Positions 1-6,000 of a DNA stretch of 64,000 nt are shown here, piece after piece (position 1 is the stretch's first letter; each line of letters starts with the position of its first letter). The position numbers were made by a program. The DNA is taken from assembly GCF_965641715.1 (NCBI RefSeq), contig NZ_OZ282453.1; one strand, 5' to 3'. The stretch comes from Escherichia coli. Its GTDB lineage: Bacteria; Pseudomonadota; Gammaproteobacteria; Enterobacterales; Enterobacteriaceae.

Positions 1-3000
1 TACAGAAAAATTTCAGCAGAACTTTGCGCTTGTCTTGCCTGACTGGCAGGTTGGCGTGAAACGAATGCTTAACGAATTATTTACGACTACAGCAATTTAA
101 TAGTTTTTGCATCTTGTTCGTGATGGTGGAGTAAGATGAATTAAAAGGAATGATGAAATGAAAACGCGTAAAGGTATTATTTTAGCGGGTGGTTCTGGTA
201 CTCGTCTTTATCCTGTGACTATGGCTGTCAGTAAACAGCTGTTACCGATTTATGATAAACCGATGATCTATTACCCGCTTTCTACACTGATGTTAGCGGG
301 TATTCGCGATATTTTGATTATCAGTACGCCACAGGATACTCCTCGTTTTCAACAACTGCTGGGTGACGGGAGCCAGTGGGGGCTAAATCTTCAGTACAAA
401 GTGCAACCGAGTCCAGATGGTCTTGCGCAGGCATTTATCATCGGTGAAGAGTTTATTGGTGGTGATGATTGTGCTTTGGTTCTTGGTGATAATATCTTCT
501 ACGGCCACGATCTGCCGAAGTTAATGGACGTAGCTGTTAACAAAGAAAGTGGTGCAACAGTATTTGCTTATCACGTTAATGATCCTGAACGTTATGGTGT
601 CGTTGAGTTTGATAAAAACGGTACGGCAATTAGTCTGGAAGAAAAACCGTTACAACCAAAAAGTAATTATGCGGTAACCGGGCTTTATTTCTATGATAAC
701 GACGTTGTCGAAATGGCGAAAAACCTTAAGCCTTCTGCCCGTGGTGAACTGGAAATTACCGATATTAACCGTATCTATATGGAGCAGGGGCGTTTATCCG
801 TTGCCATGATGGGGCGTGGTTATGCATGGCTGGATACGGGGACACATCAGAGTCTTATTGAAGCAAGCAACTTCATTGCCACCATTGAAGAGCGCCAGGG
901 ACTAAAGGTTTCCTGCCCAGAAGAAATTGCTTACCGTAAAGGGTTTATTGATGCAGAGCAGGTAAAAGCATTAGCTGAGCCGCTGAAAAAAAATGCTTAT
1001 GGCCAGTATCTGCTGAAAATGATTAAAGGTTATTAATAAAATGAACGTAATTAAAACAAAAATTCCAGATGTACTGATTTTTGAACCGAAAGTTTTTAGT
1101 GATGAGCGTGGTTTCTTTTTCGAGAGCTTTAACCAGAAGATTTTTGAGGAAGCTGTAGGCCGCAAAGTTGAATTTGTTCAGGATAACCATTCGAAGTCTA
1201 GTAAAGGTGTTTTACGCGGGCTGCATTATCAGTTGGAACCTTATGCACAAGGAAAATTGGTGCGCTGCGTTGTCGGTGAAGTTTTTGACGTAGCTGTTGA
1301 TATTCGTAAATCGTCATCTACTTTTGGCAAATGGGTTGGGGTGAATTTATCTTCTGAGAATAAGCGGCAATTGTGGATTCCTGAGGGATTTGCACATGGT
1401 TTTTTAGTGCTGAGTGAAACGGCGGAGTTTGTTTATAAAACAACAAATTTTTATTCGTATCCACATGAGCGTAGTATTATATGGAGTGATTCTAATATAA
1501 ATATAAGTTGGCCGCTCCCAAATAGTATGATAAATCTTTCTAAAAAAGATAAGATGGCACCAAATTTAAACATGGAAAATAAAATAAGTTGAAAAATTCA
1601 ATATTAACAAACATTTTTTCAATGTTCAGCATACAAGGTGTTAATTACATCATTCCTTTGGTGACAATTCCATATCTTGTTAGGGTTTTAGGGTTAGAGG
1701 TTTATGGTAAATATAGTATTATTTTGTCTGTGTTACAATATTTAGTGATAATTACTGATTATGGATTTAATTTGTCTGGAAGTAGGCAGATAGCATTAAG
1801 TCTAAATGATAAGAAAAAAATTTCAAAGATATTTTGTGCGATAATAATATGTAAGGTTATTATTGCTGCAATTTCATTCTTTTCTGTTTTCTTATTTATG
1901 GAATATAATGGTTCTTATAGCGCTTATGTTGAGTTATTTATAAGCGGAATGGGAATTGTTATAGGTACATCATTTTTCCCAGTATGGTTGTTTCAAGGGT
2001 ATGAACGCATGTATTGGATTGCTATCAGTAATTTATTTGCAAAAATTACCGGAGGCATCCTGATTTTTTTACTTGTCCACAATAACAGCGATCTTAATAT
2101 TGCTATTATTATTCAGAGTTGTACTTGTCTCATTTCTGCTGGGATTGCATTAACGACAGCAAGAATAGGGAAGTTTGTTTATTTTCTATGGCCTCCACTA
2201 TCCGAAATAAAAAAACAACTTAAACTGGGTTGGAATATTTTTTTATCGACATTTTTTAGTAGTATGTACACAACAAGCATACCATTGATACTTGGAGTTA
2301 ACGCCGGAGCGGAAGCAGTAGGCGTTTATAATTCCGCAGATAAACTCAAGCAAGCTCTGCAAGGAATAATAGGTCCTGTATCTCAAGCTATTTACCCGCG
2401 CTCAAGCCGTTTATTTTCGCACTCAATTAAGGATGGACTTTCCTTTGTAACAAAAGTCTCGATTTTCTTATGTTCATTTATGTTTCTATGCAGTGCAGTA
2501 GGTTTTTTTCTATCAGAATACATCGTTAATTTAGCCTTTGGTGCAGGACATGAGTCATCTGTTTCAGTATTAAAAATTATAATTTGGATACCATCAGTTG
2601 TTGCTGTTGCGAATATGTTAGGTGTTCAAATAATCTTACCTATGGGATTAACCAAAATCTTTGGCATGACTTATGTAGTTTTGGGAGGAATAGGATTAAT
2701 AATTATGTATGCCGCTTCATATTATGAGTCTTTCATTGGGGTGTCATATGCAGCGATATTAATAGAGATTATTATTACAGTAATCTTTTTGGCAGTTATT
2801 AAGAAGCGCATTAGAGGGAAAGAATGATTTATATATCTGTATGTATACCGACAAAAAATAGGCTTGACTATTTGACAAAAACAGTTGAGTCTATTATCAA
2901 TGATAACGTTGATGTTCATGCATATGAAATAGTTATTGCAGATAATTCTGACGATGATTTAACAGAAAAGTATGCAAGAGAATTAATGGATAGTGGGTAT

Positions 3001-6000
3001 AATATCAAATATTATAAAAATCCACAAACTGGGTTTTACAACTCTATTCAAGCACTTCAGTTAGGTGATGGTGCATTTCTTAAGTTACATAATGATTACA
3101 CCAGCTTCAATAAAGGAGGTTTTAAAAAACTATTCGATCATGTAGTAAAAAATTATGACTCTCGAAATATGCTTTTCTTCACTAATGGAGCATTGGGGGC
3201 CGTATCGACAAAATATGAATGTACTTCATTTGATAAGTTTGTATTTAATGCAAGTTATTTGATTACTTGGAGTTCGTCATTTTCTATTTGGAAGGATGAC
3301 TTTATTGAATTGGAAACAAAACCTGATGATCTCAATGAGATGTTCCCTCACACCAGCCTTATTTTACAATCAAATAATAAAATATTCTCAATAGTAGATG
3401 AATCTATTTTTAAAAATATTAGTGTATCAAGAAAAGGGGGGTATAATATATTTTATAATTTTTGTGTGTTATTTTTGGATATGCTTGATATTGAAAAAAA
3501 GAAAGGCTTGTTGTCAGAAAAAACAATAAAAAAGGTAAAAAGAGATATGTATTATAAGTTTGTAATGGTTTGGTACTATCGGACAATTCAGAACAATAAA
3601 AGAAGATATACCTTTGATAACGAAAATGCGTATGAGAATATTAAAAAAGCATATGGATTTATAGGTTTTTCTGGTGTGTTTTTAGTAGCTAAAGCCAAAT
3701 ATTTCTTTGATAAAATATTTGGCTTTTTCGTTAAAAGTTAGTATGGATTGAGCATGATTATGCAGTTAAGAACAAATATTTCTGGGAGGGTGGGGCTTTG
3801 GTTGATTTTATTTACCATTTTTGGGGGAGCTTATAAGACTGCATTTGGAACTATTAGTACATCATATATATCATTTGTCTGGGGTGGCTGGATTTTAATT
3901 ATATATATATATCATTCATATTATGTAAGACTTAATTTCTTATATAGGATTAGCAGAAGTTATTATCTATATGCATTTTTTATATCTGTGTTGTTAATAG
4001 TATCTCTTATACAATTCTCATTTTTCGGTATAGGTGATATGCTGAATATTGACTTACAACTAAAAAGAGTAATGCAGGCAATAGTATCATTTACATTTTT
4101 TGCTATAACTGCTGATTATATTATTAACAAATTGACTGTTAGGGATTTATTCTTAGGAATCATATATTTTCTGTTATTTATAACGTTGTTGTGTGTTATA
4201 CAATTATCAAATGATTCATTTAGAATATGGTATTTGAATCTTACTGCAATTGATGGATACTGGTATGAGTGGGCCCAGAAAAGTAATCGAGCGATTGGAT
4301 TAAAGGCTATGTCTATTTGGGATACATCAGTATCCTATTCATTCCTGTTATTTATAGCATTTGCTGCATACTTTCAATTAAAAAATAAAAATATTCTTCT
4401 ATATTTATTTGTAGCATTGGTTTTTCTATTGATTGTTATGAGTGGCAGGACTGGATTATTATTTTTTATTGTATTTTCCTGCCTTCTATCAATCAGGTAT
4501 AAAATTTATGGATTCATGTTTACATATGCAATAACTTCGGTTATCTGCATTTTTTTTATTATGCTTGTGAGTGAAAGTGAGACTGTTTTACGTGTAATAA
4601 ATTTTGCTTTTGAATTAATTATGAATATTATAAATGGGAAAATTGAAACAAACTCAACAGATGATCTTATTAATAATCACTTATTTATACCTCATTTAGA
4701 TAACATATTTTGGGGTGATAATATTTATATTGGTGATGGTGATGAAGTAATTTCAAAAATTGGCCGTTCATCTGACTCCGCATTTGTTATTAACTATGTT
4801 TCTAATGGAGTGATTGGTTTTTTCATAACATCTATTCTGGCCATCATTAATGGGAAAATGATATTTAGTTATTTTAATATTCACAATAAAAGTGTTTTTT
4901 ATTTTTTTGTTTTGCTTGTTTGTTTTTTTCTGTCATTTGGTTTGTATATAAAGGTATTGGTATATGTTAGTGCTACTTTGTTGAAAGCAATGATATTTAC
5001 AACTATATGTTTAAATCATATTTTTAAAAATAAAATAATAGTTCGGAAAACTTATGAGAAATGAGAAATTAATTATTTTAATTTTACGTGGTGGACCATC
5101 ATTCTATCGCAGACTCAGAAGTCGAATATATGCAATGATTTTCAATACTGAAAAGTTGACAATTGGTAGAAATGTTTCTCTGTCAGGCACGAACAATATT
5201 TACTTTGGACGTAACGTATTGGTTGGAAATCAATCATGGTTGGCGGCGATAAACTCGGGGAAAATAATTATTGGAGATAATGTATCATTAAGTCAAAATG
5301 TGCATATAGCTGCTAATCAATGCGTTAGAATAGGAAATGGTTGTTTGATAGGAAGCGATGTTTTAATAACAGATCACAATCATGGTTATGGCAGAGAACT
5401 AATATATGTTCCACCTAAAGAACGTAAGTTAATTATTAAAGGAAGCACTGAAATTGGTGAAAATTGTTGGTTGGGTGATAATGTGAAAATATTAAGTGGA
5501 GTTGTTTTAGGGAGCAATGTAGTTGTTGGTGCAAATTCTGTTGTAACACGGAGTTTTCCAGCTAACTGTATTATAGGTGGTATACCAGCAAAACTAATAA
5601 AAAAAATACAATGATATAAGGGTAGTGTTTTTATGACGGTAGATATTATTATAGCAACATATAATGGCGAAAAATACATAAGGGAACAAGTGGAGTCTAT
5701 ACTCAATCAAACATATAAGAATTTTCATTTATATATACGTGATGATGGTTCTACTGATAAGACAAAAGATATTATTTATGACTTGAAATGTTTAGACGAT
5801 AGAATTATTTTGATTGAAGATGATATTATTAATAATGGTGTTGGAGAAAACTTTAAAATACTATTAAAACATTGCTCCGCTGATTATGTTTTTATTGCGG
5901 ATCAGGATGATGTATGGGAAAAAAGTAAGATAGAAGAGCTGCTCTCTTTTGCTATAAAAAATTTACCTACAAACTCGCCAGGTATTGCATATGCCCCAGG

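What the first reader, a model, noticed from the sequence alone, without database searches (positions are those of the whole stretch)
1589..3760. Ambiguous, non-ATG translation starts for wzx and wzy
The longest ORFs for wzx and wzy begin at TTG codons that overlap the upstream gene stops, with weak Shine-Dalgarno sequences; in-frame ATGs lie 11 codons (wzx) and 2-4 codons (wzy) downstream. The true N-termini matter for topology predictions of these membrane proteins and are easy to mis-annotate.
Basis: seen in the sequence. Interest (0 to 1): 0.15.

Follow-up and report, generated by a model that had tools for sequence, protein, structure and literature searches.

The report
Start codons of wzx and wzy
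This is an ordinary gene-annotation question in an E. coli O-antigen gene cluster: comparison with relatives shows that the flippase gene wzx really starts at the unusual TTG codon, while the polymerase gene wzy most likely starts at an ATG rather than at its TTG.

Summary
The window begins with an E. coli O-antigen cluster: rfbA, rfbC, wzx, a GT2 glycosyltransferase, a putative wzy, an acetyltransferase and further glycosyltransferases.

**Observation: mostly correct.**
- wzx's longest ORF starts at TTG 1589. This overlaps the rfbC stop as TTGA, and the next ATG is codon 12 (1622).
- wzy's longest ORF starts at TTG 3748, with ATGs at codons 3 and 5.
- One error: the wzy TTG does not overlap the upstream gene's stop. 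That gene is a glycosyltransferase ending at TAG 3739-3741, 6 nt earlier.

**Both starts can be largely resolved.**
- **wzx:** the 11 codons before ATG 1622 are conserved as protein. Asn8 is invariant in 41 of 41 homologues, and position 12 is Leu in 33 of 41.
  - An in-frame stop lies two codons upstream of the TTG.
  - The homologous codon in nine syntenic loci is TTG (5), GTG (1) or ATG (3).
  - TTG 1589 is therefore the start; the 401-aa form, on about half of the public contigs counted for this protein, is a truncation.
- **wzy:** nothing upstream of ATG 3760 is conserved, and one relative has a 1-nt indel there that puts the TTG out of frame. I favour ATG 3760, cannot exclude ATG 3754, and consider TTG 3748 unlikely. 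A difference of at most 4 residues does not affect topology.

This is routine and already known in kind.

The parts
1041..1592 (+). rfbC (dTDP-4-dehydrorhamnose 3,5-epimerase); its TGA stop at 1590-1592 overlaps the wzx start
   Evidence: One search lists the ORF. Pfam PF00908 matches at 252.7 bits. PGAP annotates the same gene in NZ_CP149565.
1589..1591 (+). TTG, the most likely true start codon of wzx; it forms a TTGA overlap with the rfbC stop
   Evidence: An in-frame TAA lies at 1580-1582. The homologous codon is TTG, GTG or ATG in nine syntenic loci. PGAP uses this start.
1589..2827 (+). wzx, an O-antigen flippase of the PST/MOP family, 412 aa
   Evidence: PF01943 matches at 183 bits over residues 6-275, aligned to profile positions 2-273. 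1450 homologues were found. The AF2 model has pLDDT 88, with a helix starting at residue 2.
1622..1624 (+). Internal ATG (codon 12 of wzx), used as the start in the 401-aa public annotations; probably not the start
   Evidence: It has no SD (+2.0 kcal/mol). The same position is Leu in 33 of 41 homologues. Conserved codons lie upstream of it.
2824..3741 (+). GT2-family glycosyltransferase lying between wzx and wzy; its ATG start overlaps the wzx stop as ATGA, and its own stop is TAG 3739-3741
   Evidence: One search lists the ORF. PF00535 matches at 48.5 bits. PGAP annotates it.
3743..3751 (+). Two-codon mini-ORF (ATG GAT TGA) in another frame; its TGA overlaps TTG 3748
   Evidence: Seen in the three-frame translation of the junction. 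It is absent from L003 on my own reading of that sequence.
3748..3750 (+). TTG, first start codon of the longest wzy ORF; unlikely to be used
   Evidence: It has no SD at usable spacing (-0.4 kcal/mol). The 438-aa form was not found as an exact sequence in the public collection. The aligned codon is out of frame in L011, CTG in L004 and TCG in L006.
3754..3756 (+). ATG, candidate wzy start chosen by PGAP (436 aa)
   Evidence: PGAP annotation. A GGA lies 6 nt upstream, -3.1 kcal/mol. This ATG is absent from the relatives.
3760..5064 (+). Putative wzy (O-antigen polymerase) from the favoured ATG start, 434 aa
5054..5614 (+). Hexapeptide-repeat O-acetyltransferase (WbbJ-like); overlaps the 3' end of wzy by 11 nt
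   Evidence: PF00132 and NF007240 match. The same 11-nt overlap appears in the gene tables of L003, L004, L006, L007, L009 and L011.

Best explanation
wzx is translated from TTG 1589 and gives a 412-aa flippase. Its first 11 residues form the beginning of transmembrane helix 1. The TTG has only a weak, distant Shine-Dalgarno sequence. Because it overlaps the rfbC stop as TTGA, initiation probably depends on ribosomes that terminate on rfbC and restart on the spot (translational coupling). This should give low flippase output; both the coupling step and the low output are inferred, not shown.

wzy is translated from an ATG rather than from TTG 3748. The conserved ATG 3760 (434 aa) is the best candidate, and the E. 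coli-specific ATG 3754 (436 aa) is the alternative. The TTGAGC just upstream is non-coding leader sequence that supplies a weak GAG Shine-Dalgarno 7 nt before ATG 3760.

The start-site assignments rest on comparative sequence evidence. The actual initiation events were not measured.
For: **wzx**
- An in-frame TAA two codons upstream makes TTG 1589 the only canonical start before ATG 1622.
- Pfam PF01943 aligns from residue 6 to profile position 2.
- In 41 homologues at 33-67% identity, Asn8 is invariant, Ser11 occurs in 36 of 41, Ile9 in 32 of 41, and position 12 is Leu in 33 of 41.
- In nine syntenic loci, codons 2-11 are conserved as protein. Pairwise differences fall 70/39/139 on codon positions 1/2/3. 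The sequence upstream of the start codon is unrelated between clades on my own reading of the sequences printed.
- The homologous codon is TTG in the window, L004, L006, L007 and L008, GTG in L009, and ATG in L003 and L011. L010 has an ATG one codon further upstream. An in-frame stop lies 1-14 codons upstream in each.
- ATG 1622 has no SD.
- PGAP annotates the TTG or GTG start in E. coli, Edwardsiella and Proteus.
- In the AF2 model the helix begins at residue 2.

**wzy**
- The ATG equivalent to 3760 is present in L003, L004 and L011/L012.
- In L011/L012 a 1-nt insertion between the conserved TTGAGC and the ATG puts the TTG out of frame and creates an in-frame TGA three codons before the ATG.
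- The window's TTG aligns with CTG in L004 and TCG in L006.
- TTG 3748 has no SD at usable spacing, whereas both ATGs reach -3.1 kcal/mol.
- No public record carries the exact 438-aa form.
Against: - No direct evidence on initiation is available here (no ribosome profiling and no N-terminal peptides).
- The nine loci are related by descent, and L007 and L008 are nearly identical at the junction. TTG being present in five of them is therefore not five independent events.
- The A2 alignment was built from homologues that had full-length N-termini. Four of the ones called shorter were checked at the DNA level, and all encode the motif.
- The rfbC/wzx overlap is specific to E. coli. Relatives have gaps of 3-27 nt, so coupling by overlap is not a conserved feature.
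- For wzy, L006 has ATA at the conserved ATG position, and its only canonical start is a TTG three codons upstream. Starts in this leader therefore shift between lineages.
- ATG 3754 has an SD of equal strength and is PGAP's choice.
- N-terminal tail lengths in homologues (13-17 residues before the conserved Trp) cover all three candidates.
Confidence: 0.8

Rival explanations
1. wzx starts at the internal ATG 1622 and gives a 401-aa protein. On this view the 33 nt upstream are untranslated leader.
For: About half of the contigs counted for this protein in public records carry the 401-aa form, including the UniRef entry A0A510B230_SHIDY. ATG is intrinsically a much stronger initiator than TTG (established knowledge).
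Against: ATG 1622 has no SD at all. The upstream 10 codons are conserved as protein with third-position-biased substitutions. Asn8 is invariant in 41 of 41 homologues, and the equivalent of Met12 is Leu in 33 of 41. The same 'short' call was made in L004, L006, L008 and L010, although their upstream DNA encodes the conserved motif.
Confidence: 0.06
2. wzy starts at ATG 3754 and gives a 436-aa protein, as annotated by PGAP.
For: PGAP makes this call, and the form is found on 182 contigs. A GGA lies 6 nt upstream at -3.1 kcal/mol. It is the first ATG after the upstream stop in this frame.
Against: This ATG is absent from every relative examined; L003, for example, has AAA ACA at these two codons. 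The conserved start is two codons downstream.
Confidence: 0.33
3. wzy starts at TTG 3748 and gives the longest ORF, 438 aa, as the first reader's ORF call implies.
For: It is the first canonical start after the in-frame stop. A TTG is also present at -4 codons in L003. In L006 a TTG at -3 codons is the only canonical start.
Against: It has no SD at usable spacing (-0.4 kcal/mol). The L006 and L004 TTGs are not the aligned codon. In L011/L012 the aligned TTG is out of frame. Two ATGs lie within 12 nt downstream. The exact 438-aa form was not found in public data.
Confidence: 0.08
4. More than one start is used, producing mixed N-terminal isoforms: TTG 1589 plus ATG 1622 for wzx, and ATG 3754 plus ATG 3760 for wzy.
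For: The candidate codons are closely spaced and all have weak SDs. Nothing in the sequence forbids use of more than one.
Against: For wzx, the internal ATG has no SD, and a truncated helix 1 lacking the invariant Asn8 is unlikely to be functional. For wzy the isoforms would differ by only two residues and be functionally equivalent.
Confidence: 0.1

Closest known systems
Wzx O-antigen flippases of the PST family, MOP superfamily (Pfam PF01943 Polysacc_synt)
   Same: PF01943 matches strongly (183 bits against a gathering score of 28.2). The gene sits directly after rfbC in an O-antigen cluster that also has a polymerase gene. The predicted structure is an all-helical membrane protein. The closest named relatives are 'flippase' proteins of Lelliottia, Edwardsiella, Proteus and Providencia.
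   Different: It matches no serogroup-specific NCBIfam flippase model. It uses a TTG start; the homologous codon is also non-ATG in five of the eight relatives examined (four TTG, one GTG).
Wzy O-antigen polymerases and the WaaL O-antigen ligase fold (PDB 7TPG/7TPJ), related to the SEDS polymerases RodA and FtsW
   Different: It has no sequence match to any Pfam, NCBIfam or PDB entry. Only 22 homologues were retrieved, all labelled 'hypothetical'. Polymerase activity is inferred, not shown.
Translational coupling through 4-nt stop/start overlaps (ATGA, GTGA, TTGA) in bacterial operons
   Same: rfbC/wzx overlap as TTGA (1589-1592) and wzx/GT2 overlap as ATGA (2824-2827). A weak SD at the downstream gene is typical of coupled genes (established knowledge).
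   Different: The rfbC/wzx overlap is not conserved; relatives have gaps of 3-27 nt. Coupling itself was not tested.
Poor translation-initiation signals of wzy (rfc) in Shigella flexneri (Morona et al. 1994 and Daniels et al. 1998, recalled from my own knowledge, not checked here)
   Same: This wzy has a weak or absent ribosome-binding site and an AT-rich sequence.
   Different: This is a different Wzy family. No expression data are available here.

Membership tests
Wzx flippase (PF01943, PST family of the MOP superfamily) | Score above Pfam's gathering threshold for PF01943 | tested here: met
   183 bits against a cutoff of 28.2, over residues 6-275 aligned to profile positions 2-273.
Wzx flippase (PF01943, PST family of the MOP superfamily) | Polytopic alpha-helical inner-membrane protein (about 12 TM helices) | tested here: inconclusive
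   The AF2 model is all-helical with pLDDT 88 and pTM 0.83. I did not count TM helices, and I ran no fold search on this model.
Wzx flippase (PF01943, PST family of the MOP superfamily) | Encoded in a Wzx/Wzy-dependent polysaccharide cluster | tested here: met
   The gene order is rfbA, rfbC, wzx, GT2, wzy, acetyltransferase, further glycosyltransferases and manC.
Wzx flippase (PF01943, PST family of the MOP superfamily) | Translocates Und-PP-linked O units across the inner membrane | not testable with these tools
   Requires genetics or biochemistry.
Wzy O-antigen polymerase | Sequence membership in a described Wzy family (a Pfam or NCBIfam model) | tested here: not met
   No family matched at E <= 0.01 in Pfam, at E <= 0.001 in NCBIfam, or at E <= 1 in Pfam across 19 homologues. 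A profile search of PDB sequences found nothing at E <= 10.
Wzy O-antigen polymerase | WaaL/Wzy/SEDS-type polytopic membrane fold | tested here: met
   [not shown]
Wzy O-antigen polymerase | Located with wzx and glycosyltransferases in an O-antigen cluster | tested here: met
   The same gene order is kept in ten related loci fetched, representing eight distinct relatives.
Wzy O-antigen polymerase | Polymerises O units (a mutant shows a semi-rough phenotype) | not testable with these tools
   Requires an LPS gel of a knockout.
Translationally coupled gene pair | Stop codon of the upstream gene overlaps or abuts the start codon of the downstream gene | tested here: met
   rfbC/wzx overlap as TTGA at 1589-1592 and wzx/GT2 as ATGA at 2824-2827. 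This is not met for GT2/wzy, where the gap to the TTG is 6 nt.
Translationally coupled gene pair | Downstream translation depends on upstream translation | not testable with these tools
   Needs a premature-stop mutant in rfbC combined with a wzx reporter.

The most novel reading that the evidence does not exclude
The non-ATG start of this wzx lineage (TTG or GTG in 6 of 9 syntenic loci, including E. coli, Edwardsiella and Proteus) might be kept by selection as a built-in throttle. It would hold flippase output well below that of the upstream rml enzymes on the same transcript. Reversion to ATG, as in Lelliottia, would then be tolerated only with compensating changes.
Probability: 0.15. Interest if true: 0.2.

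Novelty: already known. Interest (0 to 1): 0.08.

Why it matters
The practical value is limited to annotation.
- About half of the contigs counted for this flippase in public records carry a form that lacks the first 11 residues, including an invariant Asn in helix 1.
- The same truncation recurs in relatives called by automatic gene finders.
- Anyone cloning, modelling or predicting the topology of this Wzx should use the 412-aa TTG form.
- For Wzy the choice among the candidate starts changes at most four residues of the N-terminal tail ahead of the first helix and has no structural consequence.

Nothing here challenges current understanding of O-antigen synthesis or of translation initiation.

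Tried and rejected
- **Naming the O serogroup.** NCBIfam has no serogroup-specific match for the wzx or wzy product. Literature searches did not lead to the source cluster. The only lead is that identical proteins are deposited from a Shigella dysenteriae strain (UniRef A0A510B230 and A0A510B225).
- **Published work on non-ATG starts or poor RBS in wzx/wzy.** Two full-text searches and one in-paper search gave nothing usable.
- **An rfbC-wzx fusion or frameshift.** Rejected, because the genes are in different frames and rfbC matches its family over its full length.
- **The wzy TTG as a conserved start.** TTGs occur 3-4 codons upstream of the conserved ATG position in four loci. I rejected this after DNA alignment: the TTGs are not all the same aligned codon, and in L011 the aligned TTG is out of frame.
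- **N-tail length comparison for wzy.** Uninformative, because homologue tails of 13-17 residues span all three candidates.
- **Sequence-based classification of Wzy.** Pfam, NCBIfam and PDB sequence searches all failed. Only the structure comparison was informative.
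Full report
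**What is in the window**

Bases 1-10,000 carry a typical E. coli O-antigen gene cluster:

| Gene | Coordinates | Evidence |
|---|---|---|
| rfbA | 158..1036 | PGAP annotation |
| rfbC | 1041..1592 | PF00908 |
| PST-family flippase (wzx) | 1589..2827 | PF01943, 183 bits |
| GT2 glycosyltransferase | 2824..3741 | PF00535 |
| 438-codon polytopic membrane ORF ('wzy') | 3748..5064 | fold only, see below |
| Hexapeptide acetyltransferase | 5054..5614 | PF00132, NF007240 |
| One further GT2 and two GT4 glycosyltransferases | 5633..8783 | ORFs; glycosyltransferase family hits in NCBIfam |
| ORF I take to be manC | 8785..10185 | ORF; name not tested |

- The stretch 1041-5614 is 99.8-100% identical to five complete E. 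coli chromosomes from pigs and humans, and 99.5% identical to a sixth.
- Further downstream I take the ORFs to be gnd, ugd and wzz. The his operon is marked by its leader, and four tRNA-Asn genes follow. This is the usual chromosomal setting.

**Check of the observation**

- **wzx: correct as described**.
  - TTG 1589-1591 overlaps the rfbC stop TGA 1590-1592.
  - An in-frame TAA sits at 1580-1582.
  - The next ATG is at 1622, codon 12.
- **wzy: partly correct.**
  - The TTG at 3748 and the ATGs at 3754 and 3760 are as stated.
  - The TTG does not overlap the upstream gene's stop. The upstream gene is the GT2 gene, not wzx, and it ends with TAG 3739-3741.
  - The only stop the TTG overlaps is that of a two-codon mini-ORF in another frame (ATG GAT TGA, 3743-3751).
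- **The Shine-Dalgarno sequences are weak**. Anti-SD duplex energies in kcal/mol:
  - wzx TTG 1589: -3.3, from a GGA 12 nt away.
  - wzx ATG 1622: no pairing (+2.0).
  - wzy TTG 3748: -0.4 at usable spacing.
  - wzy ATG 3754 and ATG 3760: -3.1 each.
  - The ten other starts scored in the cluster: -3.1 to -6.3.

**Is the ambiguity real?**

In public data, yes.
- PGAP annotates the flippase from the TTG (412 aa, 214 contigs). Other pipelines use ATG 1622 (401 aa, 248 + 27 + 2 contigs, including UniRef A0A510B230_SHIDY).
- The polymerase appears as a 436-aa form (ATG 3754, PGAP, 182 contigs) and a 434-aa form (ATG 3760, named 'Wzy' in A0A510B225_SHIDY, 174 contigs).
- The 438-aa TTG form was not found in the collection as an exact sequence.

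**wzx resolved**

- Among the best 60 homologues, most extend N-terminally beyond the position of Met12. They share the motif (D/E)(K/R)xhL(K)NIFS(L/M)FSIQG.
- In an alignment of 41 homologues at 33-67% identity:
  - Asn8 is invariant (41 of 41).
  - Ser11 occurs in 36 of 41 and Ile9 in 32 of 41.
  - Position 12 is Leu in 33 of 41, so it cannot be the family's start.
- Pfam PF01943 aligns its profile position 2 to residue 6.
- I fetched the DNA of eight distinct syntenic relatives: L003 Lelliottia aquatilis, L004 (with duplicate L005), L006, L007 Edwardsiella tarda, L008, L009 Proteus mirabilis, L010, and L011 (with duplicate L012).
  - The codon homologous to TTG 1589 is TTG in L004, L006, L007 and L008, GTG in L009, and ATG in L003 and L011. 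L010 has an ATG one codon further upstream.
  - An in-frame stop lies 1-14 codons upstream in every case.
  - Codons 2-11 are conserved as amino acids. Differences fall 70/39/139 on codon positions 1/2/3. The 30 nt before the start look unrelated between clades when I read the sequences printed in the same call.
- Gene callers made the same short call (internal ATG) in L004, L006, L008 and L010, even though the conserved motif is encoded upstream. This is a systematic mis-call and gives no support to the ATG.
- The AF2 model (pLDDT 88) starts its first helix at residue 2.
- The hydrophobic first segment begins near residue 4. The 401-aa form would lose eight helix residues, the invariant Asn8 and Lys2, which is the only positive charge ahead of TM1.

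I conclude that wzx starts at TTG 1589, with confidence about 0.9.

**How wzx initiation probably works (inferred)**

- A TTG with a weak, distant SD is a poor independent initiation site.
- The TTGA overlap places a ribosome terminating on rfbC directly over the start codon, which is the classic arrangement for termination-reinitiation coupling.
- The overlap is not conserved. Relatives have gaps of 3-27 nt, so coupling by overlap is a local feature of the E. coli version.
- Low expression of Wzx is expected, but I did not measure it.

**wzy identity**

- The protein matches nothing in Pfam, NCBIfam or PDB sequences.
- It has only 22 homologues, all labelled hypothetical.
- An AF2 model built on 19 homologues has pLDDT 83 and pTM 0.87.
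- Foldseek's only hit of note is the O-antigen ligase WaaL: 7tpg_B at E 1.4e-3, just above its own 0.001 line, probability 1.00.
- This fold, together with the position next to wzx, supports the Wzy assignment. The assignment remains an inference.

**wzy start**

- The N-terminal tails of homologues are not conserved. They vary from 13 to 17 residues before the conserved Trp, a range that covers all three candidates.
- The DNA comparison is more informative.
  - The ATG equivalent to 3760 is present in L003, L004 and L011/L012.
  - Upstream of it the loci share a TTGAGC-like motif, but the distance from that motif to the ATG is 12, 12, 13, 15 and 15 nt in the five aligned loci.
  - In L011/L012 the 1-nt insertion throws the TTG out of frame and creates an in-frame TGA three codons before the ATG. 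The ATG is the only possible start there.
  - The window's TTG aligns with CTG in L004 and TCG in L006.
  - This stretch is therefore leader sequence, not coding. Its GAG lies 7 nt before ATG 3760, a workable SD spacing.
- L006 is an exception. It has ATA at the ATG position and must use a different TTG three codons upstream. Starts therefore do drift in this leader.
- ATG 3754 exists only in the E. coli version, but it has an equally good SD (GGA 6 nt upstream) and is PGAP's choice.
- My estimate is about 0.55 for ATG 3760, 0.33 for ATG 3754 and 0.08 for TTG 3748.
- The difference is at most four residues of the N-terminal tail ahead of helix 1. Both tail arginines lie downstream of all three candidates, so topology predictions are unaffected.

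**Comparison with what is known, and verdict**

- Non-ATG starts, 4-nt stop/start overlaps and weak ribosome-binding sites on wzx and wzy genes are all familiar.
- NCBI's pipeline already annotates the TTG start. Nothing here is new in kind.
- The useful outcome is a correction: the widely propagated 401-aa Wzx is truncated, and the longest-ORF TTG start for Wzy should not be adopted.
- I score interest at 0.08 and novelty as 'already known'.
- The most novel reading I cannot exclude is that weak TTG/GTG initiation of this wzx lineage is selectively maintained as an expression throttle. Shared descent of the loci explains the pattern just as well.

Noticed in passing
window 3743-3751: A two-codon mini-ORF (ATG GAT TGA) sits between the GT2 stop and wzy. 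It is not present in the Lelliottia relative L003, on my own reading of that sequence.
   Followed up: partly
[not shown]
   Followed up: partly
window 1-8800; L003, L004, L006, L007, L009, L010, L011: The block rml, wzx, GT2, wzy, acetyltransferase, GT2 is kept in the same gene order in Lelliottia aquatilis, Edwardsiella tarda, Proteus mirabilis and several unnamed assemblies; the following GT4 gene is visible where the fetched locus reaches that far (L003, L004, L011). Protein identity is 48-70%. This suggests one O-antigen cluster type shared across genera.
   Followed up: partly
window 5054-5064: The 3' end of wzy overlaps the acetyltransferase start by 11 nt. The same 11-nt overlap is seen in L003, L004, L006, L007, L009 and L011; L010 has a 4-nt overlap instead.
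   Followed up: no
L002 (NZ_CP133871.1, strain ES5): This 99.5%-identical copy of the cluster is annotated with a flippase pseudogene (internal stop) and with shortened glycosyltransferase, wzy and acetyltransferase genes. Either the O-antigen cluster has decayed in this strain or the assembly contains indel errors.
   Followed up: no
window 39211-39286, 41619-41694, 43443-43518, 57840-57915; 49527-57605: There are four tRNA-Asn (GTT) genes with identical Rfam scores, on both strands. They are interspersed with ORFs, including a 2692-codon ORF on the minus strand. A tRNA-Ser (CGA) lies at 58907-58996.
   Followed up: no
window 24241-24364 and 26661-26735: The histidine operon leader (RF00514, minus strand) and the sRNA STnc240 (RF02074, plus strand) were both detected at gathering threshold. 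Both are ordinary for this chromosomal region.
   Followed up: no
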